From Podarcis liolepis (taxonomy: Eukaryota): 64,000 bases of DNA. Under the pieces are notes generated by a model. That model saw only the letters and a program-made list of their open reading frames with translations. It did not search any database and had not been told where the DNA came from. Every line of letters begins with the position of its first letter. The stretch's first letter is position 1. The position numbers were made by a program, and so were the translations under genes. Below are positions 9,747 to 30,824 of the stretch, piece after piece. The stretch lies in assembly GCA_965112155.1 (NCBI GenBank), contig OZ218109.1. One strand, written 5' to 3'.

Positions 9747-9748
<2 letters not shown>

Positions 9749-9787: not shown

Positions 9788-9790
<3 letters not shown>

Positions 9791-12667
9791 CCCCCAACAA
9801 CTGGGGAAACAGCCAAGTTCTTCCATTCAATAAATTTATACTGATTAAAGATATACCTCTGTTAAATTTCAGTGTAAATTGTGCCAAGTTTAATTTTGTT
9901 TTAAAGCAAATTCCTTCTCAGTTACCACTCTGAATAGATTTAATGAACATTTTAATAAAGCACCAAAGCTACTTTGCATATCAAATTCCATATATTCCTC
10001 AAAGGACTGTGTGCTGATATTACTTGCACCTGCCATTTCTAAGAATGGGGCAGCTCTTACAACCACTGCAGTCGCAGAGATAGCTGCTGCAGGCTGTATC
10101 CCAGTAGAAGCTGGTTTACACAGAAGCCATTCCATACAATCCTGTGCATGCTTCCACTGAAAGAAAATGCAGTTGTTTTGCATGTATGAGGCAGCCAGAA
10201 GCTGAACTGAGTCTCCTCCTTCAAGAATTGTCACAATAGGGTCAGCAGAGACACACAGAGGTGTATTTGGCAGCTATGGCTTAGTGTAGAACTCTTTGTT
10301 GTTTGGAGCCAGACAGTAAGACTTTTGGCTTTTGATAGGTAGAAATAGAGAGGGTACAGTTCTATTGCCTCTTTAAATTGTAATTATTTATCCTGAAATC
10401 ACTTGCTAGGAGTTGCAAATAAACATATTTTCAAAGGCCCTTTATACTCTTGCAACTCACCACTCTGGGAAATTTATCTAAATTAATTGCCTGAATATCT
10501 TAAACAGTGTTTGGGGTGGAAGCACGTTAATTGGGCAAATTGTTGGGAAATGTATTGGGGGGGTATTTTTGTATCCCCTAAGTGAATCCTGGGTAATCAA
10601 TATGAACTGGGATTAAAATTCCAAATAAACCATACCTTCACAGAACGACATCTAAGCCAAAGAATCTAGTGGATTTCAAAATACATGCCATCCTTTGCTG
10701 GATGAGCTTCATGGTTAATTACAAGTTTTTGCTCCAAGCCAGGAAAATACTATTACACTATTGGCTTGTCTCCCCCTCAGTGGTTTCTTTTTGGCTTCAG
10801 TGGATTCATAAGAAACTTTGGGTAGATTATTATAAGCATTAATTACAGGCCAAAGCAGAATGTTCCATGACATATTTGTTAATCATACCCTTATTTGAAA
10901 CAAAGATATTACACTTTCATAGGAAGCAACTAAAATAGAAACATTATTCGTGTAAAATACACTTTGGCTGTACTGCTTAATACCAAAGAAGCCTATGGCC
11001 CTGATGCAGTAGTTGGCAAGGATAGAAGTGATCACAGTTTAACCTGCTGCAAAACCAATTATTTGTGGTTGCTGAGCTCATACGCAAAGTCTATTGAAAT
11101 GCTTGTGGATTTCTGGATCTGGATGTTAATGAGGCTGGTGCATACCTGCCTGGAGGTTGTCACAAGTGTCGATAAAGTGGAAGTTGCATTGGTCTTCCCA
11201 GGATCAGTGGTCTGCTAGTGGGAGAACTGCTACTGCCTTTGATTAGCTTTGCACTTCAGCTCCTTAAGTGTTCTACCATTATATATAAAAAGATGTTGTA
11301 TGAAATGACGTACACTGTTTTGACCTGTCTCAGTTTGGTATATGAATTGCCTTTTGTGGAGTAAAACATAAGCTTCTTATGTCATATTTATTTATACATA
11401 AATAACTGGGTACTCATGGCGTGTCAGGTTGCTATGAGTGAATTTGAAAATCTGTGCACATAAATCAAGCAACAGATCTGTCTCTTGGAAAACTGTAAAG
11501 CCAGAAAACAACAAATCAAATATCTATCTCAGATCACTCAGGAAGGAAAAAGAAAATGACATAATTTTCCTCTTGGATATTTTATTTTAAGAAATTAACC
11601 CCCAACTATGTACAGATCATTTAGATGGAACAGCAAAAATGATGTTCCCTTTATTGCAACATTTATATCTGTTACAGATTCAGGTGTCCTTTTTATTTTA
11701 TATAATATCATAATTGCAGAAACAATTTGCATACAACCAGAGCAAAACAACCACAAGTAACCAAAATGCTTGTTTTCTCCTCGAAGCAATTTACAAGCCT
11801 GCAGAAATTGTCTCACTAGGGATCATGGCAACATATATGTCTGCTTCAGCTGTGAATGGCTCTACAATGTCATTATTTAGGGTTTGGTTTTGTTTTATAA
11901 AAAGGAACTTGATAATTAAAGGACAAAGGATTCTATCAGATGCAGTTGTCCCATTAGCACAATGGCCTCTACCTGTGCAACAGGGCTGCTCCCCCTTCCC
12001 CTTCAAATCTGAGAACCCTCAGAACAGCTTGGGGTTGGGGAGAAGAGAGAAAGAGGGGAAGTCTTACTGTACAGACAGAGGTCCTTCTGCTTCGGGGAGA
12101 ATTTCATTGGACACTACCCAAAGCACCTGATGTTTGAAAAACTCATTTTTATCCTTCTGAAAGAATGGAAAACTGAATTAGTAAAATGGTGGCAAGAGGT
12201 GCAGTCGGGAGGAATTTTAAACAGATGGCATGAAGTGTGAACTTTAAGAATAGCTAGACAGTCCAAAGTATATCCTCAGGTTAGTAGCCCTGAGCAGGAG
12301 GGAGCAGGAGTGTAAGAAGGCAAAAGTCACTACTTTTGTGTTGACTATCTCTGTATGACTAACAGTTCTGACTGGTGGATGTAAAACGTTCAAAATATTT
12401 TCAGGATGGGAAATCGCCTTTTTTGTTACAGGAAGTTACATGCAACAATAAAACTGAAATAGTTAAAGGAGAAAATAGCCTAATATGATTTCAAATAATA
12501 TATATACAAATATGCAGCTGAGTTACACTAGTGGCATTTTAATACCCCTAATCAGTATTCTTTTGACAGTATCAGGAGCAAGTAATAGCATTGGAGTGGA
12601 GTTATTGTGATCATCCTCACTTTGTAAACTTCTGAATTAGAATTAGGAACAGGCATTTTAAATGTTT

Positions 12668-12799
12668 CAGAGAATTGTAGATTTTGGAAGGGACAATAAG
12701 GGTCTTCTGGTCCAACCCCCTGCAGTGCTGGAATCTTTTGCCCAAAAGTGGGGCTTGAACCTATTACCATGAGATCAAGAGTCTCATGCTCTACCAACT
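12668..12799 (-). mobile_element. tRNA-Lys-derived SINE with CR1-type 3' tail
   Basis: The reverse complement reads gttggtagagcatgagactcttgatctc...ggttcaagcccc, followed by a CR1-like tail (ttggaccagaagaccc...cccttccaa). Homologous to the copies at 33679 and 37807. Confidence 0.75.
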
Positions 12800-13640
12800 A
12801 CATTATTCTTCTTTACAGATCTATGCATTGTGAAATGATAAATGATCAATGCTTTAATCTGAAAAATATTGTACCACATCTAGACATGGCAAGGTTTCTC
12901 AGTACTCATCTCCAGCTAGATCATGTCTAAGAATTTAGTTGAACATCAATATTTATATTTAGGTAGTATAGGAATTTGAATCATACCTCCTTTAAAGTTC
13001 TAAATATGGAACATGTTTATATTAATGAATCATACACATAGAATTGTAGCTAAAACAAAATAACTTTTCCAGAGCTGCCTGTGTGAATATGATCTTACTT
13101 TTAGATTGTGAAACTGGAAATGTAGAAGATTTTCCAATAGCATCCTCTGATGTAAAGACAAGTTGTAAGGTACACACAGTCTTTGTTCATGGAAAGAAAA
13201 TGAAAAGATTAAAGACTTCAGCTTGCATGGGATAACTTCCTCTTTATTCATGCCTAAGGAATTTACAATTGTATTATAGTTTTGCCAACTTTAATAAAAG
13301 GTGTCCTCCAAACCAAATGAAGGACAAGATGTAACAAATATTCTTTTGCTCTCTCCCTGCTATGTTCAAACAGTTTCAGGGTGTGTTTCCACTTTCTTTT
13401 CAAATTGGTGTAGCTTACTCCAGTAGTAACTTAAGCAGACAAGTACTTCACTACTGTACTGTTCACACTTCCAGTTAAGAAAGAAAGTACTGTCCATAGA
13501 CTGAGACAAGAACGTAGCACCAGACAAACGGTCAGATGTGAGCCCTGCAATAGTAATAGCAAAACTGCATTAGTGGTAAACTTCCATTTTATCAAGGTCC
13601 AATTGTGAATTGGGTTGTTTTTTAATATGATTTTTTTCAG

Positions 13641-13772
13641 GCTTTGCTTTCTGTGCATGATACTGTTGCCCAAAAGAACTACGACCCAGTGCTGCCTCCC
13701 ATGCCTGATGATATTGATGATGATGAAGACTCTGTGAAAATAATCAGGCTAGTGAAAAATAGAGAACCGCTG
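13641..13772 (+). CDS. MPP7: MPP7 coding exon (L27C to PDZ start), [44 protein letters not shown]
   Basis: Acceptor tttttttcag, donor CTG|gtaagt. 132 nt, phase 0/0. Confidence 0.97.
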
Positions 13773-13999
13773 GTAAGTTGTTTTTTTAAAAACCAATAAC
13801 AATAAAATCATACCTGACACTCAAAAATATGAGCCAGTGTCATTGCACAGTTGTGCACAAATTATGCACTAATAAGGGGGAGTTTGAAATAACATTTCTG
13901 TATGTTGGAGGAAAGGCTATGAGTGTCTCTTGGAGTGGGGTAGGAAATGTAGGAAAGTGATGAGGTGCTAATAAATATGAGTGGTGCACAAAATTTGTG

Positions 14000-14590
14000 C
14001 TCCATTATGACCAGCAACCTTTTCATTGACACTGAGCTGAACAGACATATTGGTAAGGCAGCTACGGCAATGGCTTGCCTCTCCAAAAGGGTATGGGAAA
14101 ATGTAATGCAATGGCTAATACCAAGATTAAGATCGACCATGCTTACATATTAAGCATGCTGCTTTATCAAAGTGAGTTGTGGTCAACTTCCAGGAGTGAT
14201 GCCTCAGCACTTTCCAAATACGCTTCATCAGGATGATTTTGGGCATCACATGGCAGGACAAAATCTCAAACAAAGATGTACTCTCCCAAGCCTCAATTCC
14301 CATGATGTTCACACTTCTGTCTCAGTGATATCAACACTGGCTTGGCCATGACCGCAGAATGGAAGATGGCAGGCTCCCAAGGATGTGCTTTATGAGGAGC
14401 TGGCTTCAGGCACCAGGTCCATTGGCAGATCAGCTCTGCCATATAAAGATGTCTGCAAATGTGACATGAAGGCTGGCAACTTTGACACCGCTGTGTGGGG
14501 GATCCCTTGCAGACAACTGCAGTGCCTGGAGACAGGCAGTCAGGTTGTGTATGCACAGCAGTGACCAGAGGGAAAATGACCGCTAGGCAA
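14000..14590 (+). mobile_element. Decayed RTE-clade LINE ORF fragment (C-terminal region)
   Basis: Translates to DTELNRHIGKAATAMACLSKRVWEN, then (with frameshifts and stops) ILGITWQDKISNKDVL, WLGH..RMEDGRLP, and YKDVCK.DMKA. These are characteristic RTE motifs. Confidence 0.85.
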
Positions 14591-15489
14591 TAGAAATTAT
14601 TGCAGTTCAGAGAAATATTCCAGCAGCTAGGGGAAAGCACTTCAGCAAGGCTGGTTAGGTATATGGTCTGGGGAGAGAGGTGTGACCTGGGAAGAGTTCA
14701 GAAGGATATATAGGGAGGCCTGGAGGGCTGCATTGGGTCTCTGAACCTGATATTCCCCACCCCTGGTTTACTGGCTCTCTGGGCTGATAGGAGATCTGAT
14801 TAGATTTAGATTACAAAGTTCAGTTTCCATTTCAACCCATCTCTGTTGCCACAAATCACTGCAGAGAAAGCTTGGTGTTGGTAATTTGTAGTGTGAATGA
14901 AAGTAGTAACTCATTCCTGTAGGCTTCCACACCAGCCATCTCCTACATATGTCTTTGTTCATGCTGCTGCACTTGTCTTGTACCTGTTTTATAATTGTAA
15001 AAACAGTTACCGTAATGTAAGAAATATTCCACTTTTTAAAAACACTGAATCCTTCACCATGTGTTTTCCAAAGCAGTACTGAAATGTAGAATGGTTTTCA
15101 GGTCACTTAATTTTGCTTGGTGAAACTATCCAAGATTCCCCAAGACTCTTTAGTCCAAATAGTAATTACTGTGTTCTAAAGTGGGATGTTCTTTTAAGCG
15201 CAGATAATGTGGGAGATGTGGAAAACTCCTCTGAATGTAGTCTTTTAGAACAAAAACAAAATCTAGACCTTTGCAGTCTTCTATATGTAGTGTTAATGTT
15301 TTCATTGTTCAGTACTCGAACACAAATACTTTAACACCCAGGGAATAGAGGGGTCCAGATAACTTCATTTGTAAAGACAGGAATCTCAAATATAGTTACC
15401 TTCCTCAAGTTACTGAAAGGTTGCTGGTAGAAAACTGTTCAGTGTAGCCCAGCATTAAATCATAATAATGTTTCAATTTATTTTTAAAG

Positions 15490-15571
15490 GGAGCTACTAT
15501 TAAAAGGGATGAACAGACTGGAGCTGTTGTTGTTGCTCGAATAATGCGTGGAGGTGCTGCAGATAGAAGTG
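15490..15571 (+). CDS. MPP7: MPP7 coding exon (PDZ), [27 protein letters not shown](G)
   Basis: Acceptor tttttaaag, donor GTG|gtaaga. 82 nt, phase 0/1. MAGUK p55 PDZ motif [13 protein letters not shown]. Confidence 0.96.
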
Positions 15572-15962
15572 GTAAGAATATTTAAAAGTGTGATTGCTGA
15601 GATGTGATGGCCAGCCTGGTTCTTCAAATGAATTCTAAATTGCTTGGTAAAAGTAGGTAATTGCATCCAGAAACCTTTTTGTGGTTTCTGCCATGTATAT
15701 TATTTTAGATTATTGTGATAGGATCTCTGATAGGATTTTGGTATTATGGATGCAATTTAGCAGTTTGAAAATTATCTCATTAGTGAAATACATTTAGAAA
15801 CTCAGCAAGAAGGAAGGTATCAAATCAGCCTCTCTGTATCGCAGTTTCACAGTTGAGCACTTCTGTGCACTAAGCATTTGTATGCTCTCCTGTAACAAAG
15901 GTTCTCTGGGCAGAAAGATTAAAAACAATCACATTACAATAAAACTATAGTAATATTAAAGT

Positions 15963-16314
15963 TAGGAATGCGGGTGGCGCTGTGGGTTAAACCACAGAGC
16001 CTAGGACTTGCCAATCAGAAGGTCGGCGGTTTGAATCCCCGCGACGGGGTGAGCTCCCGTTGCTCGGTCCCTGCTCCTGCCAACCTAGCAGTTCGAAAGC
16101 ACATCAAAGTGCAAGTAGATAAATAGGTACCGCTTCAGCGGGAAGGTAAACGGCGTTTCCGTGTGCTGCTCTGGTTCACCAGAAGCGGCTTAGTCATGCT
16201 GGCCACATGACCCGGAACCTGTACGCCGGCTCCCTCGGCCAATAAAGCGAGATGAGCGCTGCAACCCCAGAGTCGGTCACGACTGGACCTGGTGGTCAGG
16301 GGTCCCTTTACCTT
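15963..16314 (+). mobile_element. Full-length Sauria SINE
   Basis: tRNA-like head with A box (tggcgctgtggg) and B box (ggtttgaatcc). Bov-B-type tail ending ggggtccctttaccttt. 12-bp TSD TAATATTAAAGT (15951-15962 and 16315-16326). CpG-rich. Confidence 0.93.
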
Positions 16315-16528
16315 TAATATTAAAGTAAACAACTACAAACACAATTCTTTTTTGCCTTCCCAAAGAGAGAGAGACAGAAAGACCTTGCTATAAAATTGCA
16401 TTTGGGTAGAAGAGAAGTAGAAATCTGTTGTGCTTTGCGGAGTAGGAATGACCATGACTTGAAACAATGTTAGATATGCACAATTGTATTGAACTTTAAA
16501 ATGGTTGTTAAATAAATATGCTCCACAG

Positions 16529-16614
16529 GTCTCATTCATGTTGGCGATGAACTTAAGGAAGTTAATGGAATTCCTGTAGATGATAAAAAACCAGAAGAAA
16601 TTATACAAATTCTG
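16529..16614 (+). CDS. MPP7: MPP7 coding exon (PDZ), (G)[28 protein letters not shown]
   Basis: Acceptor ctccacag, donor CTG|gtaggt. 86 nt, phase 1/0. PDZ GD..EVNG motif. Confidence 0.96.
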
Positions 16615-17113
16615 GTAGGTTACAAATGGAATAATTAAGGCAGTTGATGATGAGCTTAATGGGTTGTGTTACAACCCCGGCACGTGATGGAGGCAGGAGC
16701 AAAGAACTCTGGGAGGCAGGCACAGTTCCCAGTTTTTTCCTCCTGCCTGACTTGGCCTTTCTTCTTGCATTGGTTATTTTTATATCCTTTATTTCTTGGT
16801 TCATTAACTCTTTGATAGATCAGGAGAGGCTATTCACTTCTTTATTTTATGGTTTTGTTTTTTAAAATCCATAACAATTTATACACCACTTGATTGTAAA
16901 CACTCTGTTAACAAACTTTTGCATAAATTATCAGAGCGTGTCTGTTTTTAGGACAGAAGAGAATATCGTAGCACAGCCTATTATAAAGAGGTACTAAGAT
17001 GTTAATCACATCAAGTTAACTAGCACTACAAGTTGCATTAGCTCTACCTTCCTTATTGTTTTTCTTTAACTTGTACTGAATGCTTTGATAATTTGTTTTT
17101 CACATCCTTTTAG

Positions 17114-17188
17114 TCCCAGTCGCAAGGAGCCATTACATTTAAAATTATACCCAGTATCAAAGAAGAAACTGCATCTAAAGAAGGAAAG
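17114..17188 (+). CDS. MPP7: MPP7 coding exon (PDZ end), [25 protein letters not shown]
   Basis: Acceptor ccttttag, donor AAG|gtaaga. 75 nt, phase 0/0. Confidence 0.95.
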
Positions 17189-17377
17189 GTAAGAGGTCCT
17201 TTCCTCAGAAAAAGGGACTTACTCAGATTGCTGGCTGAAATATATTTTGTACCCATATGTAAATGTGTTTTACAATTGTATTTTTACGCATGTTGTTTGT
17301 ATGCCAATAAGCAATAAAAACGGAGACTGAGGGTTGTAATAAGACATTTAATTACTAATAAGGCCGTCTTCTTCCAG

Positions 17378-17574
17378 ATCTTCATGAAAGCTCTGTTTGA
17401 CTATGATCCCAGTGAGGATAAAGCAATTCCCTGTAAAGAAGCTGGACTTCCTTTCAGAAAAGGTGATATTCTTCAGATCATGAGCCAGGATGATGTAACT
17501 TGGTGGCAAGCCAAGCTTGAAGGTAATGCCAATCCCAGGGCAGGCTTAATTCCATCAAAGCATTTCCAAGAAAG
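17378..17574 (+). CDS. MPP7: MPP7 coding exon (SH3), [65 protein letters not shown](R)
   Basis: Acceptor cttccag, donor AAG|gtgagc. 197 nt, phase 0/2. SH3 signature ALFDY..WW..GLIPS. Seen in the ORF track at 17384..17578. Confidence 0.98.
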
Positions 17575-18077
17575 GTGAGCAGTTTCTGATTTCTCTGATA
17601 CTTAAAATGTGATCACTATATCTTTGATATAATTGTTATGCCTGACCTTATGGATTATAAGGTCAATCAACTTTCAAGTTTTGTCTTATGGTAAAATGTC
17701 TGAACTTTGTAAGTTGTTGCCCAAGTAGTTTGGTTTTCTTTATTTGTCTATTCACATTAATAATGACAAAACCTTATAGAATATTTGTGATCCACCTTGG
17801 AAAGGAAAAACATATGGAAAATAGTACATTGGTATCTGTATCTTTATTGATGTACTATGCATGAATAACAACTGCAGCTGTGTTTGGAGAACATAAAAAA
17901 ACCCTTCTAGGATTTAATTTCATAGACTTTGAGTAGACTGTATTGTTTAGGAAAATGTCTTCTAAAAATCAGGATACTTTGGAAAAGACCGATATGGAGT
18001 GTTAATCTCAAAATAGCTATGAAAATTATAAAGAGTTTTGCTTCTCTCCCCCCCCCTTCCCTCAAATCATTTTATAG

Positions 18078-18142
18078 GAGGCTTGCACTAAGAAGATCAG
18101 ATGTACAGGTTCAGCCCTTGAAAGTTTCCAATAGAAAATCAT
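18078..18142 (+). CDS. MPP7: MPP7 coding exon (HOOK N-part), (R)RLALRRSDVQVQPLKVSNRKS(S)
   Basis: Acceptor ttttatag, donor CAT|gtaagt. 65 nt, phase 2/1. The exon ends in a single T. Confidence 0.95.
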
Positions 18143-19498
18143 GTAAGTCTGTTTAGAAATCATATTACTTCATTCACACAAATATGGCTTGTATTAGCTC
18201 TTTTTAAGATATGGCGCTGGTATCTTAAGATATATCAGCAGGCCAAAACCTGTGATGCTGTAGGAATAGGATTTTCGTTAAAGAAAATTGTTTACCCCCG
18301 CTTCCGACATCAATACTTATGTAAAACCTATTCCCTACAGTGAATAAAATAATAAATATACCAATCTCTAATTATTGGAAGGGCATTCTTAATGACTCAC
18401 TGGGTATTTAAATACTACACAAAAGGGGACACATGTGAAGTCAGTGCTTTTTTCAGGCTCAACCACCTACTTTTGAAGCATAGTCCAACAATATCTGGAG
18501 GTTGTGTGAAGCTGCTTTGGAGTATGTTTTTAGAACATATCAATAAATATCATGCTGATATATGATCTGTTACCACTCATATGCTTATCAAATTTTCTGT
18601 CTGCTTTTCTTATTAGAACTGAATTGGACTTATAAGAAGTGGGTTTGATCCAAATTATGCAAAAACATTAAGGCATATGTTTTAAAATGTATCAAAAATA
18701 TTCTAGCAAGTACTTTTTCTGTGTGCCTAATTAGAATTATATCAAAAGCAAATGATGTGAAAGCACAGTATCTCTCATCATGGACTAAAAATAGCATGTT
18801 TGAAGGTTTCAGAGTTCTAGTTTAAAAAAAAAACACAGTAGTTCATTCTTCTATAGAACAAAGACAGTAACATTACTCTAAACCAAATCATTTTATTGGT
18901 ATACTTGAAGTTGGACAGCAAGATGATGAGCCACTTTCTGTGGGGTTTTGGAAAATTAATATAAAATGGTTGCATGGAATTATGTGTGTGTGTTGCGGGT
19001 CAGGAGCATGGAGAAGCAGTCATTTATATTTGTGAACTGGCTCTGTTTCTGACATAGGATAGCACTGGACTACATTTGCATGAAATTGGTGACATTTGTT
19101 ATATGGTGTAACTTATGCACGTGTCCTTAAACTTGTCATTCATTTGATGTAATATGTCTTCAAAAGAGAGCATGAACCATCAGTAATTAAAATCAGTTAG
19201 ACTAATTCTGGCCAAAACAGCTTCTTTCCAACAGAACCATGATTTTTACCATGGTAGTTTGCTTTTATATTTAAGCTATATCACATGTCTTCTCATTCAT
19301 ATGACTAATAATAATTTAATATTGTTAATCCATAATTAGCATTGTGTAATGGATAGGGTGGTTAATCTCTGAAAGACCTAGCTAAGTGTATAACCAAAAT
19401 AAAATAGTAATTTTGATATTAAATATAAACTGAATTATGTACTTTTTAAAATTTTCACTAAGTGTGAGAGAAGAAATATTTAATCACTGTCAAATATA

Positions 19499-19784
19499 CA
19501 GTGATACCTCGCAAGACGAATGCCTCGCAAGACAAAAAACTCGCTAGACGAAAGGGTTTTTTGTTTTTTGAGCTGCTTCGCAAGATGATTTTCCCTATGG
19601 GCTTGCTTCGCATGACGGAAACGTCTTGCAAGTTTGTTTCCTTTTTCTTAACACCGCTAATACAGTTGCGACTTGACTTCGAGGAGCAACTCATAGAATG
19701 CGGTGTGGTAGCCTTTTTTGAGGTTTTTAAAGACTTTGGTGATTTTTGAAGCTTTTCCAAAACTTTCCTGACACCGCACCACTG
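19499..19784. mobile_element. Tc1/mariner (Tigger-like) MITE with truncated right TIR
   Basis: TA|CAGTGATACCTCGCAAGACGAA...GCACCACTG|TA. The left half is shared with the element at 49984. Confidence 0.8.
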
Positions 19785-21814
19785 TATTTATATAGTTCAA
19801 TATCAATATCATGTGATTTAGTATGGTGTGCATTCAAGCAAGATGGAACCTATTTTATAATTTTGAGAATTAATTGTGCACAATTCAAATTTTTATGTGG
19901 CGCCCAAACACTGAAAGTAAAACTCATTTTGTCAAATTCTACACTGTAACTCCTTATACCACTATCTGTTTTGTCAGCAAGCCAAACACATCTTCACTCT
20001 TCTTTCAAACCTAGTATTCTTCCTGACATTTAGTGAGGAGTCTTCCTCTAATAATCCCTACTATTGCAAGGACAGCAGACTTTGACCTCACTTTTTATGA
20101 CTATTTGCAGTCCTAAATTATATAAAGTCAGTGTCATCTTGTCTTGGGTCACTTGCTGCTGTGGTGACATCATTAATACAGGCTTCATCTTTGCAGTCTG
20201 CGGTGTCATCAAACAGAAGAGTGCATTTGAAGAATTTCAGTATTTTTGCCTAAAAGTTATTCACTTAAAAAAATACATTAGCATTTTTTGTTTTTATACT
20301 TTCTCATGCAAATCTTTTTACGTACAAATTTTGTTAAATATTTTCATTATAGCTTGGAAATTCAATTGTATACCTTAAGATCTTTATACGTCCATGAAAA
20401 TCTTAGTGATCCTGCTTATGATAGTTTGTCAATTGATGCTCATTTATAAAATGGAGCTGCTGTGCATTGTGATGCAGGCCAGTGACTGAACTGAATGACT
20501 CCTGCTTTCCCCCAAATATACTGGATAGAGTCATGCATCTGTTATGCATAGCAAACGGCAAAGCAGTTGCATGTTCAACTAATAATGAAACAGATCCTTG
20601 ATATAAATCATCAGTTGTGTTCCAATTTACATTCAAGTAATTTGTGTTACTTCATCAGCCCAGTTCTTTTGTCAGTTTCCTTTCTGTGCATCTTACAACT
20701 ATATTTCTTTTGCGTGCTTAATTTTTTCTTTATCCATTCTAACCAAACTTGCCTTTCCATCTTAGAAAAATATATAAGAAAGTGGAACCACAATTATTCT
20801 TATTTGCAGTGTGGCATGCTCCGGTTCAGTACACACATGTACACAGCCTTTTTTCCTCCACCCCCAGTCAGCCAAGATTTTGTTTCAGTCACATTTTAGT
20901 AATTTTGTATTGTATATTGTTTTAAAATCTACTGTTTATTTTATTTTAATCTTGTCAAGTTGCTTTGAGATTTTCAATTGAAAGTGACTGAATATTCATT
21001 AACATAATATTGCTCATTGAGCATGCCCAGTCTTCAGTGTGCTGTTTCTTGGCTATTTCCTTCCATAATGCCCCCCCCCCATCTCCATTTTGTGCTGTTT
21101 TAGCTGTATGGGCTTGATATCTAAGAACTGAGATGGCTAACAGTATTTATAATTCATGCCAAATATAAGTAGGCAACGTTATAGAACTGAAATGTTAGAT
21201 ACTTTGGTTCACATCAAAGTAGCAGGTACCCACATCGGCGACTAATAATAATGCAACTTCATGGATTGCGCTCCATGCGGGAAGCTTTCTTGTTGATGTA
21301 GCCTCCAAAGGGGTCCAAGCATGCCAATGGAAATCTGGTCTCTCCTTGTGAATGCAAGGGGCTTTCATGGTAATGAGCTGGCCAAGTTTTGTGTTAACAG
21401 ATCTCACACACTGCTCATTTCATAAATGCAACACCCTTAATAGTTCAGGTGGGAAAATTTATCCTCATTGAAAAAATAAATTCTGAAGGAGGCTTTTCTT
21501 CCCCAGTAAGTATTTGTCCTCTTCTTCATTTCTTTCTCAGCTAAGCAACTAAGCTCTTCCTGGGTTGGTTCAAAGAAGGTGGGCTATGACAAATTTAACA
21601 GGGCCTATAATTTAATTCTTTCTTAACAGCGCAATCCAAAGTGTTTGGATTTGGCAGATCTTGGGCTTTCTTGGCTGAGAAGATAATGGTATTGTTCTGT
21701 AAGAGCAACTCTCTCATAATACATTGTATCAGTTGTAAAGAGCACATATATGAACTATTATTAATCCTTTGCCTCTTAAGAACGCATTCAAGTAGGCGTC
21801 CTGTCCTTTGTGAT

Positions 21815-21977
21815 CAGTGGCGTAGCGTGGGTTGTCAGCACCCGGGGCAAGGCAAGTAATTTGCGCCTCCTAACCCGTGGATTTGCGCCCCCTAACCCGT
21901 GGATTTGCGCCCCCTAACCCCCAGATGTTGCGGCCGGTGCGGCCGGCCCCCCCTGCACCCCCCACGCTACGCCACTG
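21815..21977. mobile_element. Young hAT-superfamily MITE
   Basis: Perfect 17-bp TIRs CAGTGGCGTAGCGTGGG / CCCACGCTACGCCACTG. Perfect 8-bp TSD TTTGTGAT (21807-21814 and 21978-21985). Internal 22-bp tandem repeats. Confidence 0.93.
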
Positions 21978-22272
21978 TTTGTGATTGCAACTTCCTTGTA
22001 TTGTAAAGGGACAAGAATCTGAATAACTACATGAATGTGCCCTTTAAAACTGATATGCATGTGTGTTGTGCCCTGATATCTGTATTTCATCAGAATCTAC
22101 CTGTGTAAAGTAATGATGCTTGATCAAGGAGCAATAAAAGTGGTACTAGCAGAAGTTGTGTCTTTGGTGGGAGGGGAGACTTTGATGGGCAAGCAGGCAT
22201 AGAAATGAGCCCAAAGAAAGTTTGTTCTAGTGCATTGTAAGTTGGCTTTGGGATGTGTCTAATAAACTAGGG

Positions 22273-22409
22273 CAGGGGTGGGGAGCCTGTCGCCCCCATA
22301 TGTCACTGAACTACAGTTCCCATCCTTCATGACCATTAGCCATACTGGCTAGGGCTGATGGGAATCAGAGTCCAGCAACATCTGGAGAACCTCAGGTTCC
22401 CTCCTTCTG
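22273..22409. mobile_element. Short hAT-type MITE (aactacagttcccatc family)
   Basis: caggggtggggagcctg...caggttccctccttctg termini with an internal hairpin module. Confidence 0.6.
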
Positions 22410-22417
22410 GGCTCAGA

Positions 22418-22614
22418 CAGAGCTTTCCAAACTGTGTGCCACGACACATTAGTGTGTCAGCTGCAATGTGTAGGTGTGTCACACAAACACTCCCTGTGCT
22501 CTTATAAGGGGTTAGTTTAACCTCTGGTTTGCTAGTAAAACTGAATTACTACGTCTCAAAATGATGCATGTCTAAAAAGAGTGTCACCAATATGAAAAAG
22601 TTTGGAAAGCTCTG
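22418..22614. mobile_element. hAT-type MITE
   Basis: 16-bp TIRs CAGAGCTTTCCAAACT / AGTTTGGAAAGCTCTG. Imperfect 8-bp TSD (ggctcaga / ggctagag). Confidence 0.8.
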
Positions 22615-23060
22615 GGCTAGAGGAAGTCTCTGGATGAAAGCAACAACCTGTAGAAAACTTAACTTCAACTTAAGAGTGTAACCATTTCAAAATTACAATT
22701 GAAAACCTAGTGACTCTTACTTATGATGCTAAGCAGAACATGACTAGTTAATGTGTTGTTTTTTCATCCCAGGGCTGGTGCAAACCTTTCTGTCTCTTAA
22801 ACAGTGTTAGGGGAACATAGCCTTTGCATACGCACCAAAAAACTTTACACATTTTGAAAGTGAGGTTCTGTCATTTCCCACTCCCAAAAAAGAAATTGGG
22901 GTACAGGCTTTTGCAGCAAAACGCTGAACGTGCCGTGCATCATACTTCTGCAAAATATGCTCTTAACCTGTTCTTTATATTACTCAGCTCTGCTTTTCCC
23001 ATTTTATTATGTGCTGAATATAATGTAAATCATGTCTGCTTGTCTTTTGGCTGTTCTAAG

Positions 23061-23081
23061 CTGAGGAAACAGTTGAGTGTG
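23061..23081 (+). CDS. MPP7: Putative alternative 21-nt microexon of the MPP7 HOOK region, (S)EETVEC
   Basis: Pyrimidine tract tgcttgtcttttggctgttctaag, exon CTGAGGAAACAGTTGAGTGTG, donor gtaggt. Phase 1/1, frame-preserving. Same length and position as the short exon recalled in paralogs MPP3 (YDQPCDK) and MPP4 (DEETFES). Confidence 0.72.
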
Positions 23082-23172
23082 GTAGGTGTTTCCCCCCCTT
23101 TTATTCTTCCATTATGTCTTCAGTCCATATAATCACTTTGCATCCTATTTTTCCCCCTTTTGCGCTTCTCAG

Positions 23173-23184
23173 AGGAAATTGAAG
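23173..23184 (+). CDS. MPP7: Putative alternative 12-nt microexon of the MPP7 HOOK region, (E)EIE
   Basis: Long pyrimidine tract tttttccccctttTGCgcttctcag, exon AGGAAATTGAAG, donor gtacat. Phase 1/1. Lies 91 nt after the 21-nt exon. Resembles the recalled MPP4 segment EELS. Confidence 0.62.
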
Positions 23185-23893
23185 GTACATGTACAAGTTT
23201 CCCTGCTGGGCTGCAAGTGATGGCTTAAAAACTAAGTATTCTAGGTCATCACTGACTTAGAGGCAATTAGAAAATAATCCATCTAGATAGCAGTATATGT
23301 AGTCACAACAGCCAGTTGCTTTGTTGTTGTGGGAATTGTTGTTCCAGTCCTGAGAATCGTGGTAGTAGAAGACTGTGAACATGTTGCTTTCTGCACGTAG
23401 TTCCTACAGCACAGTACTGGCATGTGTGCATGAAGATTCCTGTGGGGTAAGGCACAGGGATCCACATGTGTTATCCCATTGTCAGATGTGATTTCTTCCT
23501 TTGTATTTTTCCTTCTCCTCACATAGCAGGAATTTTGGGGGCCCAACATAACAGATCTGCCTGTTTCTGCACATGGGTCAAGTATGCAGAACAGAAGCGA
23601 ATGTGTGCTAAAACCTCTGAATGTTAGCAAAGTAACATAACTGAAAAAAGCAGATATGTTAACACAAGACATTTCCATGGAGCTAAAGATGATGTCAGTC
23701 CTATTGCATGGCTCTAATAGATTATCTTTCTTAAATTCAAACTTTGACACTGAATAAAGTGGATCTTTTCCAGTCATTAGGGGTGCAATTTTGGAACACA
23801 GCTTGACAGATGCTTTACTGCTGTGGTGTCAATCTTTGGGGGACTTTTCACTTGCAGCATACAGTTGTAGCTCATTGATTTCTTTAGATAGGT

Positions 23894-23935
23894 TATCTAT
23901 CTATCTATCTATCTATCTGTCTGTCTATCTATCTG
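23894..23935. repeat. (TATC/TGTC)n tetranucleotide microsatellite
   Basis: Read directly from the sequence. Confidence 0.9.
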
Positions 23936-24429
23936 TATATACCCAAAAGCTGTAAAGTATTTTGTTAGACATTTGGTATATTAAAATAGGCACCAATACT
24001 ATTTTATACCTAAGAAGTTATATTCATTAAAAATACCCTTTCTGTCCGATCCATTGAGCCAAATACAAAAACTCCTGATATTCTTTGTAGATTTCTTTAC
24101 CTTTGTGTTTCAGCTGTTGTATATTTTATCCTACATTAAAATATAAAGTAGAACACCTTTTAAAATCACTTCTTTATTTTCTGTCATGAATAAGGCAATA
24201 AAACAGTGAAAAGTTAAATATGCATGTTGCTGTACTCCAAAATCTCTTGCTCAACTTCAGAACAACACAGTGATTTATTTTTAAGCAGTGGCATATTGAA
24301 GGCTTTTTATGCTGTGCTTTCTGCAGTTGTCATTTTTAAGTAACTCTTCTTTTGCATTCATGGCTGGGCATCTAACTATTCTGCTTTATTTCTTGGCTTT
24401 TGTTCTGTACGCTTTTACACTTCATCCAG

Positions 24430-24471
24430 AGGAAGCTGAATGTGCTGGTCACAACAGTGGAGCCCACATAG
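24430..24471 (+). CDS. MPP7: Putative alternative 42-nt exon of the MPP7 HOOK region, (E)EAECAGHNSGAHI(A)
   Basis: Branch-like ctaac at 24372, long pyrimidine tract ending ttcatccag, donor TAG|gtgagc. Phase 1/1. Aligns with recalled MPP3 ETCDCEGYLKGHYVA-GLRRSFRL, directly before GFRRSFRL. Confidence 0.78.
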   Translation, partial: RKLNVLVTTVEPT

Positions 24472-24787
24472 GTGAGCAGTTGCTTACAAAAGACTCTCTT
24501 TCTTTCTCAGCTTTTTCCTGGATGGCTACAGAGTTTGCAGGTAATGGGCATCACTGCATGCTATGAATCTGCTAGATTAAAAAATGGCTCACTGGATTTG
24601 ACACAAAGGATCTGCATCCTAACCGCAACATATGTTACTAACATTGAAATATAGAATGCATTGAAATGCTACCTTGAATATGAGGAAATAATTTACTTGG
24701 GCAGAATTTGCAAAGAAATTTAAATACTTGTTCTGGACAAAATGTTAGGCTGGCTATATTCCATCTGACTACATTATTTTTCTATCA

Positions 24788-25030
24788 CAGTATTCTTCAA
24801 TCTTGGGTCCCCAGATGATATTGAACTACAACTCCCATAAACCCTTATCATTGACTAAGCTGATAGGAATTGTGAAAGTTGTAACCTCGTGACTTAGTGT
24901 AGGGATAGCCATTGTGGTACCTGACACTTGTTGTGGGCTACAATTTTCATCATCCCTGGCCATTGGCCGCTCTGACTTGAGTTGGTGGCTCCATAACATC
25001 TAGAGGGTACCACGTTGGCTACTGCTGACT
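24788..25030. mobile_element. Two partial short hAT-type MITE copies (aactacaactcccat family)
   Basis: ccagatg...aactacaactcccat...gttgta and gctacaattttcatcatccctggccattggc...aacatctagaggg modules, similar to 35855. Confidence 0.55.
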
Positions 25031-25659
25031 TACAGGGAAGTAAGTTAGTACTGTTGGATAGCTGGGATTGCTTTCTTGTCAATGAGCCAAGTAATAATAC
25101 CATGGACTGGCTCATCTTTGCTCACCTATTCTTGAAGTAGTTTACTGGTAATTCCTTAGAAGATGCTACACAAGAACCATTGTAAGTTGAACATACCATA
25201 TTAGGTTTTCTTTATTCTTCAAGGAAGGGATGTGGGAAGAGAACACAAATGATTGGTAAGAATTGGCCCATATTGGGGTATAAAATGTGGTAGAATAGGG
25301 AAGGAGGTTGAGATCCTGGTGATGCAGGAACTACTCAGGGTAAATCAGCAGCACAAGAGTAGGTGGAAACTAATTGAGGGCATGCTACATAATTTATTAA
25401 TATATCCATGTCACATGTTTTATTAAAGGGGAAGGTGACACTGCAGATAGGTAGACTGGTAGAGAAGTTTGTGTGTAACCATGCTTCAAGATAGATTTTA
25501 GAAGCTGTGGTCTAAATCTGTATGCCTGACATTTGCATGCCACAGGAGGCCTACCAATCCAAACAGAATAGCTGTCACTGTTAAAGCCCTTCATGATTTG
25601 GGACCTCAGTAGCTGAATGATATTTTCTTCCCAGTTACATTTATCTGTGCCTTGAAATA

Positions 25660-25914
25660 CAGTGGTACCTTTGTTTACATAGTTAATTCGTTCCGGAGGT
25701 CCGTTCTTAACCTGAAACTGTTCTTAACTTGAAGCACCACTTTAGCTAATGGGGCCTCCTGCTGCTGCGCTGCCTTTGTGCAATTTCTGTTCTCATCCTG
25801 AAGCAAAGTTCTTAACCTGAGGTACTATTTCTGGGTTAGCGGAGTCTGTAACCTGAAGCGTATGTAACCTGAAGCGTATGTAACCTGAAGCGTATGTAAC
25901 CCGAGGTACCACTG
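25660..25914. mobile_element. Tc1/mariner (Tigger-like) MITE
   Basis: TA|CAGTGGTACCT...AGGTACCACTG|TA. Internal 16-bp tandem repeat tgtaacctgaagcgta x3. Confidence 0.87.
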
Positions 25915-28900
25915 TAATCATCTGAAACTCTTCTCCTAGTACCCCTTGCATACTGAGGTGCGGAGAGAATAGTCACAAGGGAAAAGGCCTTCTGGTTGTG
26001 GAATGCCAGAGAGGCCCACCTGACACACATTTTAATGCCTTTCTGGTGCCAGGCAAAGAACTTTTTTTATTTTCCCAGGCATTTTAAAATTGATTATATT
26101 TATTAATTGAAATAATTAATTCTTTAATCTTTGCATGTTGCTGTGATTTTAGCATGGTCATTTTAGTTCTGTGAAATTCATTTTGGGAGCTCTGTCTTAC
26201 TGATTATTGCTGTGATTTCTAATCTTGTGGTCTCTGTTTTATGGTTGTTTTATTTACTTTAATGATTTCTTGTTTTGTTTAAATAGTTTTTGATCATTGA
26301 CATCACTCAGGGAACTGCTGTTGGGAGACTGATGAATAATAGCAGTTCCACTGATGACATTCAAATTAGCAACTTTAATGCCAGACCTTGCTAGTTGATC
26401 TCTTCTGTTGAAATATATATTTTCTTTAACTTAGTATAATTGAGTAGGATGGATTATCAACTTTAACTCACACTTTTTGTCATACAGAATAAAAATGCAT
26501 AACTAGGCAGTTATCATAAGATTATTCTGAGTAGAGCATGGGATGTGTGGAGATACGCCATAATTCATAGATAATGAGAGGGGGAGAAAACTCCATCACT
26601 ACCTTGGCCTTCCTCCTACATACCTCTACCAGCAGGGCTCTATGAGCCTCCATGTAGGTGCTACTTACATACCCTGAGGTATCTGCAGTCAGCTTGTTCA
26701 GTTTGGTATCACTCTTGGCCCAGTATGTTCACTGATCTCCACAACAAGAATCTGAAGCAGGTTAACAAACGTTAGCTTAGAAGGGAACCTTGCGAGTGCC
26801 AATGCAGATGCACTCTAAGCTAAGGCTTGGAAGGATACTTTTGCTGGAAAGTTGGAGGAAGAAGGGGAGACCATTGGGTCACTCCCAGTTTCTTAACTGT
26901 GGATACAGGGTGGAAGTGTTATAGCTTCATTCGGTTTTCATGAAATGTCATTTCTGGGATTCATAATGTGAAACTACAGTGGTATCAGACATACAGAATA
27001 AAAACTATTTAAAAGCCCTAGTCATATTTCAGGAATTGGGTGTACTGTTATAAGGTGGCCTCAGAAATGAACTTCCTACAAACTGGAGTTGTCCAGAAAT
27101 AATTAACAATGTTTTTACTGTGCTAGTCAATGATATGGTGTTGGTTTAACAGAGAACTTGCTATTTGTCTATAATGTATGTCAAACTGTATTAAATTTGA
27201 CACGCAAAGCATGTATATCATTGTAGATTGTGAGCCTGTGGGACGGGGCTTTACCATTTAGGTCTAAATGATACCTACTTTTGTGAGATGTTTGCTGTTG
27301 ATACTTATTGGAAACAATGGCTTGTCTTTTTCTCTATATACATTGAAGACAAAGGGTTGTCTTCAATGTATATAGAGGAAAAAGTGCATACAATTTTGAA
27401 AAACAGTGATTGGTATTAAATGGGTAGCAGTGAAGGACAGAAGTTGAACTAATTTTCATGTAGTTTAATGGTTCAAACCATGTAGTTAAACTATTTTGTT
27501 GGTAGTAAACTGTTTGCATACTATTAAAAACAATAATTGGTTTCACCCTTTTGGCGAAAACTATTTAAATAGCTATTTATTAGCATACTTAAAAACTCTA
27601 TAAACTCAATATAAATACCAGTTTTAGTCTCCAAGAGGAATGGTGTGAGCCATTACCAGAAGAGGGGGTGTTGCTCCCTTTTGTTTCTACAGCTAGTTGC
27701 TAGGAACATGTTCAGTGTGTAGCATTTCTAAAGTGGTTGATTGCACTTGGAATAGTCTAACACTTTAACCTGACCAGGAAGAGGGGATTAGCATTAGGGT
27801 GGTGGAAAGTCCTGTTCAGTGTTTGCTAATTTGTTACAATCTAGTTTGACCATGAAATGGGATCAATGCAAAGGGTTCTGCACCCAGGAGCTGGCTTAAT
27901 TTTCAGTGCCTTTCACTGATGATCTGTGGAACAAAACAGAGGGAAGTTTTTGCTTTCCCTCAAGTATGTACTTCTAGAGGGGAGCCTAAACCTTTTGAGC
28001 AGCAGCTATTCTTTTGTAGAGTAAGGAGGGCATTCAGATACCCTCCAGGAGTGCCTTTCCCACCAGCAGGAAACAGGGTTAGCTTGCAAAGTTGACTCCT
28101 CTATTGGAAGGAGCTACCAGGCTGCCATAAGCCCCATGGAACCAGTGAAGGCCTTATTTGGTGCCCCAGCTTTCATTTTTCAAAAGTACATGTCTCTACC
28201 CCTCCTAGGAAAAAATTATAATCAAAGTGTGCAGGTACCCTTCTAAGCACCAGTAATTTCTGTGAAATGATTAGCCAGTGAGTGAAGTGAGAGCTGTGAT
28301 TGATAAGTGAGCTGTTTTGACACCAGGCAGTGGGAAAACTTGGGGCTCCAAATAGCTGCTGTCCCCCTTTAGTGCCCTTTTCCTGCTTCTGTCTTATATC
28401 CTAGTCTTTGGATTCACCCAGTTGCTGCTCTGTTTGCTTCACTTTGCTTCCTGCCATCCATATAGAGCAGCTGCTTCAGAAACTCTTTGAAAATGTGGGA
28501 GATGAAATCTGGGGGTCCTTCCCATTGCTGCTTTGTTTGTTTTGCTGCCTATTGGAATGTAGAGTGGATGGCTGCTTGATAGCTGCCTCAGTAGAATACT
28601 GGGGGGTGGGGGAAGGTTATGACAACCATTTGTTGTTTCTGCTGCATACTGTACAATGGGGGTTGTTCCAAAGTTGTTTGGGTGAGGGCAGTTCAGAGGC
28701 TTCATATTGATGGTGATAATAATTATCACATTTTTCCTGGTTCTTTTTTATGAGTGAGCAAGTGCATAAGTATTACTACTACTACTACTACTACCACCAT
28801 CACCTTTTCTCTGCTTGTTCTCAAGTGTTGTTGTTTTGCCAGGGGTGGGACATTTCCAAAGAATCATTCTCATCATCACCTTTTCCTCTTGCCTGGCACA

Positions 28901-30653
28901 CATCAAGGATTGTTCCCAAGTTGTTTGGGAAAGGGAGTGCTCAGTGCAAATGCAGAAAAACTATTACTGCCATCTCTTCATACACCCCTTATTTCAACAG
29001 CTACTCTGATGAGTTTTTTAAATGACTTTCCTTTGCATTTTCCTTGCATTTCTATTTGTTGTTGTTGTTGATATTGTTGTTTATTAAATTTGTATACCAC
29101 CCTTCATCTGACAATCACAGCTTTAAATTTTTGCCTATTCAGGTGTACGGCTGGCTGTAGTGATTCAGGATTCTTCCTGCTTTCAGTTATCTTTTAATTT
29201 CTAGCTCTGATCTACAGCAGCACGTCAGAAGTATTGTATTCTCTGGCAGATCAGCATGCTGGGATGCAGTTGTGACTGGAGTTCAGGGTGGGAGTGATAG
29301 AATTCTTAGATGTTTATCTGTGTAACTCATTCATTTAAGGGACAAGACATTCCTGTGGTTCTATTAAAAGCAGTCACTATTGACTCTGAGCACTACCATT
29401 TTGTCTCACTGCTGCTCCCATGGTGTTATGAAGGTTCTGGTCATACCAATAGTGCACCAGAGGATGCAAAGTATTGAAACATAAAGAAGTATCAAGTGGC
29501 TTGAATTAAAGGTGATCATACTGATACATTGGGCTTTTCTAGGCAACATAAAGGCAAGCAGATCTTGGTAAAGACAAGCAACAACTCAGTGAAGATCTGT
29601 CTCAGCAGGCAAGGAGGCATGAGATCTATTTCCCATCATAAGAAGCCTGTCCTGGATTGCTCAGAGTAGAACATCTGACTCAAGTGACAAACACAACTGT
29701 AGACTGGCTGAGCTATGTTGTTTAATATATTGACTGTTTCTCTCCGTAATTATATTTTATCTTATGCCCCATTTAATGATGTATGTGTTATCAGAACAAA
29801 GCATATTGGTGTTGCAATGATTAAAATTGATTTTTAATGTAATTCAAGACTGTGAAGCTACTAATAGGCATAGCTGTCAGCGTTTCCCTTTTTTAAAGGG
29901 GAAATTTCCTTATTCCGAATAGGATTCCTTGCAAGAAAAGGGGAAAGTTGACAGCTATGACTAATAGGTTTTTAGAAACATTCATCGCTGTTGTTGACTT
30001 TCTTTGAACCAGTGTGGATGTCAAATATATGATCTCAGCTGGGAACATATTTAGATAAAGAATGAGTGTCTTCTGTTGATTCTGCAAGCACTTTTTAAAA
30101 TGATCGGTATCTGGGAGTTGGGGTAATTATCAGTATTTTGGGGGTAGGGATATCAGCAAATTTTGCAAGTCTGTATTACAAATGTGACATTTCCTCATAT
30201 TTCTGTTCTCAGTGCTTAACAGAGATCTAGCCTGCTATACCAATATGATGTTTTTGTTTTTTTAAAAAATACATCATTCCTAATTTTCACCAGCAACCCA
30301 TACACTTTGAAATTGGCACCTTTTGAATAAAAATAATTTGGTAATGTGATTAGGTCACAATCCTATCTAAAAACAGGGGAACTTCAAAAGTAAACACAAA
30401 ACAATGGAGATTAAAAAGACGTCAAATTTCACCCCATATGGCTCCCATATGCTCTTGCATGAGCCTAATCAAATATATATGGAAAACAATTTGGACTTTG
30501 AATTTGGTCCTTCAAGATATAAGGAAGAAAAATTACTAAGTAACAAAAGTAACAGATGCCCATATGAAGGAGCGTTTGTTGCAGATGGGCTACTGGCTAG
30601 TCTGATGACAGTAACCCCTGCTTCTGCTTTTTTTTTAAATCTCGTAACTACAG

Positions 30654-30824
30654 CTGGTTTCAGGAGGAGTTTTCGTCTCAGCAGAAAAGATAGAAAAACA
30701 AACAAGACTATGTATGAATGCAAGAAGAGTGATCAGTACGATACAGCAGATGTCCCAACTTACGAAGAAGTAGCAAAGTATAGACGACAGCCCAATGAGA
30801 AATACAGACTTGTTGTCTTGGTTG
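30654..30824 (+). CDS. MPP7: MPP7 coding exon (HOOK to GUK start), [56 protein letters not shown](G)
   Basis: Acceptor aactacag, donor TTG|gtaagt. 171 nt, phase 1/1. TYEEV motif. Confidence 0.98.

What the first reader, a model, noticed from the sequence alone, without database searches (positions are those of the whole stretch)
18142..24471. Built-in splicing dependency: the 21-nt microexon licenses the other two
Seen in the sequence: the upstream constitutive exon ends in a lone T (18142). The 12-nt and 42-nt exons both begin with AG, so splicing either directly to the upstream exon makes T|AG = TAG, a premature stop. The 21-nt exon begins CT (T|CT = Ser) and ends in G, so G|AG = Glu keeps every downstream combination open. 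Of 8 possible combinations, 5 are coding and 3 carry a stop far upstream of the last junction. Established: such stops normally trigger NMD. Inference: this acts as an AND-gate that either forces ordered inclusion or couples splicing to MPP7 dosage. Any escaping transcript would encode a GUK-less L27-PDZ-SH3 protein.
Basis: partly seen in the sequence, partly recalled or inferred. Interest (0 to 1): 0.75.

Follow-up and report, generated by a model that had tools for sequence, protein, structure and literature searches.

The report
Junction stop codon gates MPP7 microexons
In this lizard's MPP7 scaffold gene, two small optional exons would create a stop codon unless a 21-base exon is spliced in ahead of them, an old layout shared with the sister gene MPP3 that likely works as a passive RNA-decay filter on nerve-cell isoforms rather than as a dosage switch.

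Summary
The arithmetic is right. The upstream exon ends in T, the 12- and 42-nt exons begin AG, and 3 of 8 combinations carry TAG at least 599 nt before the last junction. The gene is lacertid-lizard MPP7, and the exons lie in the flexible SH3-GUK linker. They are old: orthologous peptides occur from amphibians to mammals, and the mouse 21- and 12-nt exons are catalogued as neural microexons. The paralogue MPP3 has the same 65/21/42-nt layout, and its 21-nt exon is already listed as 'NMD when skipped' in mouse and human brain (predicted; no cycloheximide response recorded). The gate is only partly conserved. Outside squamates the 42-nt exon is annotated alone through a +3 tandem acceptor giving Tyr (30 proteins), against 0 of 28 squamate proteins that carry it. 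NMD can filter finished mRNAs but cannot order splicing. No stop-bearing junction was seen in RNA, and that test was weak. Verdict: a real feature and a variant of known AS-NMD, most likely a passive isoform filter. The squamate tightening is the new part.

The parts
17378..17574 (+). Constitutive exon encoding most of the SH3 domain
   Evidence: Spliced match to Podarcis MPP7. Junction to the next exon seen in 10 and 6 raw reads and in contigs of 2 further runs.
18078..18142 (+). Upstream constitutive exon, 65 nt, phase 2 to phase 1, ends in T
   Evidence: Covered by RNA reads. Mouse and human MPP3 have a 65-nt exon at this place.
23061..23081 (+). Microexon A, 21 nt (S-EETVEC), begins CT, ends G; keeps B and C coding
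   Evidence: Peptide in 33 of 96 squamate proteins (A, A+C, A+B+C). Mouse 21-nt exon listed Neural / NEURAL-UP.
23173..23184 (+). Microexon B, 12 nt (E-EIE), begins AG; stop if joined straight to the upstream exon
   Evidence: TGC at -12 of the acceptor. Peptide identical in birds, turtles and a gecko. Mouse 12-nt exon listed Neural. Not annotated in any lacertid protein seen.
24430..24471 (+). Small exon C, 42 nt (E-EAECAGHNSGAHI), begins AG; stop if joined straight to the upstream exon
   Evidence: Annotated behind A in Podarcis muralis and P. raffonei.
24434..24435 (+). In-frame AG six bases into exon C: possible alternative acceptor that would give T|CT (Ser) and avoid the stop
   Evidence: Open in silico; used in 0 of 28 squamate proteins that carry C.
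24511..24540 (+). Fourth cassette exon D, 30 nt (S-FSWMATEFA), begins CT, 39 nt behind the donor of C; likely mutually exclusive with C
   Evidence: Found by splice-site scan. In 10 proteins from Podarcis muralis, P. raffonei, Zootoca and Lacerta, and in no other group.
30654..30824 (+). Downstream constitutive exon, 171 nt, begins CT (T|CT Ser, G|CT Ala); basic HOOK motif [11 protein letters not shown] and start of GUK
6962..42048 (+). Span of the 14 constitutive coding exons of MPP7 that were located (the first ~50 codons were not placed)
   Evidence: Domains L27, PDZ, SH3, GUK in the matching Podarcis proteins.

Best explanation
This is a cluster of small in-frame exons in the SH3-GUK linker of MPP7 in which the 12- and 42-nt exons give a junction stop codon unless the 21-nt exon precedes them; the stop is likely an inherited by-product of coding constraint, and nonsense-mediated decay would passively remove the off-pattern transcripts, fixing which likely neural isoforms exist rather than ordering splicing or setting gene dosage. 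Shown: the junction codons, the distance to the last junction, the conservation of the peptides and of the T-requiring residue, and the same layout in MPP3. Inferred: all introns here are phase 1. The main skip isoform needs T|CT (Ser). The acidic inserts start with Glu, and every Glu split as G|AR becomes T|AR, a stop, behind a T. Neural splicing factors of the SRRM3/4 type likely raise A and B together, so stop junctions are a minor leftover. In most tetrapods C escapes the stop through a +3 tandem acceptor (Tyr). Squamates likely lost that escape when the second codon of C changed from Asp to Glu, so here C survives only behind A. Lacertids also carry a new CT-starting exon D that is coding alone.
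For: Junction codons and 5/8 versus 3/8. At least 599 nt and 6 junctions downstream. Codon table: G|AA and G|AG are Glu, T|AA and T|AG are stops, and only T gives Ser or Tyr. Junction residue S or Y in 257 of 257 classified proteins. Mouse Mpp7 21- and 12-nt exons grouped Neural, the 21-nt exon at PSI 0.13-0.40 in islets (supplements of PMC8797185 and PMC8395343). MPP3 proteins of parrots and a catfish show Y-DQ(S/A)SDK then E-DCDCEG. MPP3 65/21/42-nt event flagged NMD_ex in mouse and human but without a cycloheximide effect. C-first Tyr forms in 29 of 161 bird/crocodilian/turtle/mammal and 1 of 10 amphibian proteins, versus 0 of 96 squamate proteins. Insert lies in a low-confidence loop, residues 302-373.
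Against: The T is invariant while the residue just before it varies (S 228, I 14, T 6, A 1, L 1), which could mean selection on the stop itself. The layout has lasted in two paralogues, and the MPP3 event changes during mouse and human brain development, which fits regulation as well as tolerance. No RNA evidence for or against stop junctions in the lizard was obtained. Database isoforms are mostly predictions and cannot show stop-bearing forms as full-length proteins, so the absence of B-first forms is circular. The +3 acceptor and the Asp-to-Glu change are read from protein sequences, not from orthologous DNA.
Confidence: 0.55

Rival explanations
1. Regulated AS-NMD switch. Some cells include C (or B) without A on purpose, so that MPP7 mRNA is destroyed. 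In squamates C has become a conditional poison exon and A is the rescue input.
For: C is included independently of A in other tetrapods (30 C-first proteins), so the same splicing choice in a squamate would hit the stop. The homologous MPP3 event is dynamic in developing mouse and human brain and predicted NMD in both. Another MAGUK gene, DLG4/PSD-95, has a validated NMD_ex exon (PMC13078869 passages).
Against: MPP3 event: delta-PSI 0 under cycloheximide in iNeurons (P not available), not flagged in the mouse cycloheximide column, pLI 3.5e-6. Mpp7 has no row in that paper's mouse (S2) or human (S4) splicing-event files; its one hit is a gene-count row. No stop junction seen.
Confidence: 0.22
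2. The gate is moot in this lizard. B is rarely or never included, and C without A is rescued by the +6 acceptor (T|CT) or replaced by exon D, so no stop-bearing mRNA is made.
For: B appears in only 4 of 96 squamate proteins, all from one gecko, and in no lacertid. The +6 form is open. D is annotated in 4 lacertid species, and the newer P. muralis records seen list D forms but not A+C.
Against: 0 of 28 squamate C-bearing proteins use the +6 acceptor. B keeps the exact EEIE peptide, canonical sites and a TGC at -12. 12-nt exons are easily missed by annotation (recalled).
Confidence: 0.13
3. Stop-bearing transcripts escape decay and make a truncated L27-L27-PDZ-(partial SH3) scaffold that competes for LIN7/DLG1.
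For: A GuK-less MPP3 splice form lacking a 21-bp exon is recalled from Kantardzhieva et al. 2006; only its reference entry was seen. Skipping the 21-nt exon in parrot MPP3 gives 315 aa, which matches the recalled length.
Against: Six junctions lie downstream of the stop. The product would lack the post-linker strand. A search among shorter proteins with the MPP3 linker returned 5 of 5 hits that are not such N-terminal products.
Confidence: 0.1

Closest known systems
MPP3 21-nt exon (mouse chr11:102010207-102010227; human chr17:43816676-43816697), flagged NMD_ex in PMC13078869 supplements
   Same: Paralogous gene, same place, same exon sizes 65/21/42 nt. Tyr at the first junction and Glu at the second, so skipping a frame-preserving 21-nt exon gives a junction stop.
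   Different: In MPP3 the 21+42 form is the commonly annotated one and no 12-nt exon was seen. In MPP7 the full-skip form is common and there are three or four cassettes.
Mouse Mpp7 neural microexons MmuEX0029562 (21 nt) and MmuEX6000123 (12 nt)
   Same: Orthologous exons in the same order with similar spacing (A-B intron 122 nt computed from the listed mouse coordinates, 91 nt here).
   Different: The tables list them as neural cassettes and say nothing of the junction stop. In mammals C also has a coding C-first form.
NMD-enforced exon choice (FGFR2 IIIb/IIIc type), as summarised in PMC6071210
   Same: Decay removes forbidden exon combinations after splicing.
   Different: That mechanism relies on frameshifts, and the paper says it does not apply to exons that are multiples of three. 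Here all exons are multiples of three, the stop is made by the split codon, and the logic is 'B or C needs A', not 'either/or'.
DLG4/PSD-95 NMD_ex exon
   Same: AS-NMD in a MAGUK scaffold gene in the nervous system.
   Different: Validated dosage control by one exon, recalled as frameshifting and PTBP-controlled. Here dosage control is unshown.
NAGNAG tandem acceptors
   Same: The E-D / D and Tyr forms of exon C outside squamates are what a +3 tandem acceptor predicts.
   Different: In this window the +3 site is absent (AGG) and an AG sits at +6 instead.

Membership tests
MPP7 (MAGUK p55 subfamily) | L27-L27-PDZ-SH3-GUK architecture and orthology to named MPP7 | tested here: met
   Exons match Podarcis MPP7 proteins at about 90-100% over true exon bodies; Pfam domains in those proteins.
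Neural (SRRM3/4-type) microexons | Very short (about 27-30 nt or less; cut-off recalled, 30 nt in the PMC11648925 abstract) and frame-preserving | tested here: met
   A 21 nt and B 12 nt meet it; D is 30 nt; C at 42 nt does not meet the size limit.
Neural (SRRM3/4-type) microexons | UGC near the 3' splice site and a long AG-free zone (PMC8797185 passage) | tested here: inconclusive
   TGC at -12 for B and -24 for A, none within 30 nt for C. No AG in -60..-3 for A and C, one at -51 for B. No background rate was computed.
Neural (SRRM3/4-type) microexons | Neural-biased inclusion | tested here: inconclusive
   Mouse orthologues listed Neural. In the lizard the two raw runs of unknown tissue show no depth over A and B.
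AS-NMD event | Premature stop more than 50 nt upstream of the last exon junction | tested here: met
   At least 599 nt, 6 junctions; rule as stated in PMC13078869.
AS-NMD event | The stop-bearing isoform is actually produced | tested here: inconclusive
   No joint from 18142 to A or B among the 15 joint rows shown (11 not shown). About 10 reads per raw run. C not covered.
AS-NMD event | The isoform rises when NMD is blocked, and gene output changes with it | not testable with these tools
   No NMD-inhibited lizard RNA. Paralogue MPP3 shows no recorded cycloheximide effect.
Sterically exclusive exon pair (C and D) | Intron between the two exons too short to splice, and no isoform with both | tested here: met
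   39-nt gap; 0 of 16 lacertid insert-bearing proteins hold both. Principle from PMC6071210; the minimum intron length is recalled.

The most novel reading that the evidence does not exclude
Squamates converted a freely coding cassette exon into a conditional poison exon without changing its length. Point changes at the start of exon C removed the Tyr-giving tandem acceptor, so C now destroys MPP7 mRNA unless the neural 21-nt microexon is co-included. This would be a two-input, split-codon NMD switch on scaffold dosage, inherited in outline from the MPP3/MPP7 ancestor, with lacertid exon D as a newly born stand-alone replacement.
Probability: 0.2. Interest if true: 0.65.

Novelty: new variant of a known kind. 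Interest (0 to 1): 0.38.

Why it matters
Exons whose length is a multiple of three are usually treated as harmless, independent modules. This locus shows that split codons can make them conditional on a neighbour, and that one or two base changes at an acceptor can switch that condition on in a lineage. If the stop junctions carry real flux, microexon regulators would set MPP7 levels as well as its linker sequence, in a region reported to bind MPP5 (SH3-D5; PMC7662862). If they do not, it is a tidy but passive constraint on isoform lists, already noted computationally for MPP3.

Tried and rejected
No whole genome is held for the window, so orthologous DNA and intron conservation were not examined. 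The RNA run search listed no holder on record as RNA. Reads and contigs of 4 runs (of 24 listed) were laid on the part of the gene holding the SH3 exon, the upstream exon, A and B, but not C, D or the downstream exon. The constitutive junction was seen. A and B had zero depth in both raw runs, but depth was about 10 reads, tissue is unknown, and 12-21 nt pieces are at or under the shortest sides the aligner reported (21-22), so this is no test of the gate. An obligate intervening exon was sought with a crude splice-site scan using recalled weights. The top hit, 21541-21578 (38 nt, frameshifting), and the other hits apart from B, C and D appear in none of 271 proteins. As a baseline, 0 of 7 phase-matched split-codon skips among this gene's constitutive exons give a stop; too few for a rate. 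Literature searches (listings only) showed no paper on an MPP7 junction-stop dependency; most subscription papers are not held. Kantardzhieva 2006 is not held. Supplements: PMC11648925 unreadable; PMC8355340 no hit, files 12-20 not searched; PMC13534637 no hit; file 4 of PMC13078869 was cut when stored. Unseen supplements may list Mpp7 events. Earlier scan notes: none matched. 'Ordered inclusion forced by the stop' was rejected on mechanism. 'Gate universal in orthologues' was rejected for C by the Tyr forms and for teleost mpp7b by the Ala junction.
Full report
1. Observation. The window holds the MPP7 gene of a lacertid lizard on the + strand. Fourteen constitutive coding exons from 6962 to 42048 match Podarcis MPP7 proteins, which carry L27, PDZ, SH3 and GUK domains. 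The upstream exon is 18078-18142 and ends in T. Exon A is 23061-23081 (21 nt, CT...G), B is 23173-23184 (12 nt, AG...G), C is 24430-24471 (42 nt, AG...G), and the next constitutive exon, 30654-30824, begins CT. Joining in silico gives 5 open and 3 stop-bearing combinations out of 8, all three by T|AG. Six constitutive exons follow, with 599 nt between the stop and the last junction, well past the 50-nt rule stated in PMC13078869 (passages).

2. A splice-site scan with recalled weights found a fourth exon D, 24511-24540 (30 nt, CT...G). It is annotated in 10 proteins from Podarcis muralis, P. raffonei, Zootoca vivipara and Lacerta agilis and in no other group seen. It lies 39 nt behind the donor of C, so C and D likely exclude each other (principle in PMC6071210 passages). 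C also has an in-frame AG at +6 that would give T|CT. Enumerating these options leaves the rule unchanged for B-first and normal C-first joins, but D alone and C(+6) alone are open. No obligate intervening exon was found.

3. The exons are real and old. I classified the linker in 271 MPP7 proteins; 14 could not be classified, 2 of them only because of my pattern. Squamates (96): skip 49, A+C 24, D 10, A 5, A+B+C 4 (one gecko), unclassified 4. Birds, crocodilians, turtles and mammals (161): skip 53, A+B+C 62, C-first 29, A+B 6, A+C 4 (2 look mis-predicted), unclassified 7. Amphibians (10): skip 6, A+B+C 2, A+C 1, C-first 1. Four unnamed proteins: skip 1, unclassified 3. The two amphibian A+B+C proteins come from unnamed 5.8-kb assembled contigs that cluster with newt MPP7, which implies spliced RNA. 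These rows are not independent, since relatives and several isoforms per species are counted, and most are database predictions. In mouse, the 21-nt exon (MmuEX0029562) and the 12-nt exon (MmuEX6000123) are grouped Neural (supplement of PMC8797185). The 21-nt exon has PSI 0.13-0.40 in islets and is marked NEURAL-UP (supplement of PMC8395343). An AlphaFold2 model of a gecko A+B+C isoform puts the insert in a low-confidence loop, residues 302-373 (mean pLDDT 72.3).

4. How far the gate is conserved. The junction residue is Ser or Tyr in 257 of 257 classified proteins, and both need a terminal T. B always starts with Glu, and G|AA or G|AG become T|AA or T|AG, so B-first is a stop in every species seen; its absence from protein databases is therefore circular. 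C differs. Outside squamates it occurs as E-D-A and D-A behind G and as Y-A straight behind the upstream exon. This is the pattern of a +3 tandem acceptor (inferred from protein, not DNA). C-first forms occur in 30 such proteins and in 0 of the 28 squamate proteins that carry C (10 species). Squamate C starts E-E, so even a +3 acceptor would give a stop, and in this window the +3 site is gone (AGG). The dependence of C on A is thus likely a squamate acquisition. Teleost mpp7b has Ala at the skip junction, which implies a terminal G and no stop.

5. The paralogue precedent. Parrot and catfish MPP3 read Y-DQ(S/A)SDK, then E-DCDCEG, then GLRRSF in the parrots, with a skip form in Ser. PMC13078869 supplements list the mouse and human MPP3 21-nt exon, flanked by 65- and 42-nt exons as here, as NMD_ex, dynamic in brain development and conserved between the two. 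The flag is a prediction. Delta-PSI under cycloheximide in human iNeurons is 0 with no P value, the mouse cycloheximide column is 0, and pLI is 3.5e-6. Mpp7 has no event row there. I recall a GuK-less MPP3 form lacking a 21-bp exon from Kantardzhieva 2006, but saw only its reference entry. The 315-aa truncation computed for parrot MPP3 agrees with the recalled length. Characin MPP4 has similar acidic short segments but a further exon ahead of them. The layout likely predates the MPP3/MPP7 split.

6. RNA in this species. Four runs were laid on the stretch holding the SH3 exon, the upstream exon, A and B. The constitutive junction was seen in 10 and 6 raw reads and in contigs of two more runs. 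The bin with A and B had zero depth in both raw runs, and no joint from 18142 appears among 15 rows shown (11 hidden). C, D and the downstream exon were not covered, tissue is unknown and depth is low, so this neither supports nor refutes the gate.

7. Mechanism. Most likely (0.55) the stop is a by-product. Phase-1 introns, Ser in the main skip isoform and Glu-initial acidic inserts make T|AR unavoidable. A and B are likely co-induced by neural splicing factors (B has TGC at -12, A at -24; motif from PMC8797185 passages), and NMD would clear what is left over. NMD reads finished mRNA, so it cannot force the order of splicing (established knowledge). A regulated dosage switch (0.22) stays open, mainly because C can be included without A elsewhere and would be fatal to the mRNA here. 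The gate may also be moot in lacertids (0.13), or yield a truncated 317-aa protein (0.10). Against my reading: the T is invariant while the neighbouring residue varies, and the layout has persisted in two paralogues.

8. Novelty and verdict. AS-NMD, neural microexons in MAGUK linkers, tandem acceptors and the MPP3 event are known. I found no paper on the MPP7 dependency in nine searches (listings only, open-access library). What seems new is the reading of the cluster as a split-codon dependency among frame-preserving exons, its tightening in squamates and the lacertid exon D. It is a new variant of a known kind, interest 0.38. Papers seen: PMC8395343, PMC8797185 and PMC13078869 as passages and supplement rows; PMC7662862, PMC6071210 and PMC2148059 as passages; PMC8355340, PMC11648925 and PMC13534637 as listings, with supplement look-ups that gave no hits or no files.

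Noticed in passing
window 24511-24540: Lacertid-only 30-nt exon D, 39 nt behind exon C. Read-through from the C acceptor to the D donor (111 nt) is also open behind A, but no protein seen uses it.
   Followed up: partly
window 21541-21578: Strongest acceptor in my crude scan, with a GT donor 38 nt later: a possible frameshifting cryptic exon. No read depth in the two raw runs, and it is in no protein seen.
   Followed up: partly
window 19493-19776, 21815-21977, 22330-22600, 25661-25916: Repeat copies in the intron. The first three draw very deep off-target RNA coverage. Short tandem arrays lie at 19506, 21859 and 25847. The last has inverted ends by eye and looks like a small DNA-transposon derivative.
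   Followed up: no
proteins P0251, P0444 (mouse Mpp7 isoforms X5/X6): Short predicted isoforms start with a different upstream exon joined to A as Asn (implying a terminal A), then A+B+C and GUK. Behind that exon B or C first would read Lys, not stop.
   Followed up: no
proteins P0244, P0249, P0254, P0257, P0261: Some mammals carry a further 6-residue piece (DAVCAT-like) behind C: another short exon or a longer donor.
   Followed up: no
PMC8797185 supplement: The fly relative metro has a 30-nt pan-neuronal eMIC-dependent microexon ahead of a 168-nt exon (171 nt here), and mouse Mpp4 has an 18-nt neural microexon. Whether they sit at the same linker position was not checked.
   Followed up: no
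proteins P0110, P0190-P0194 (Sphaerodactylus): One gecko shows five linker variants, including a Gly-Thr addition behind B (likely a +6 donor) and both long and short starts of C; both starts would still give a stop behind the T.
   Followed up: partly
window 48001-52000: CpG count is raised (77 against about 20-55 in other 4-kb bins), possibly the promoter of a neighbouring gene.
   Followed up: no
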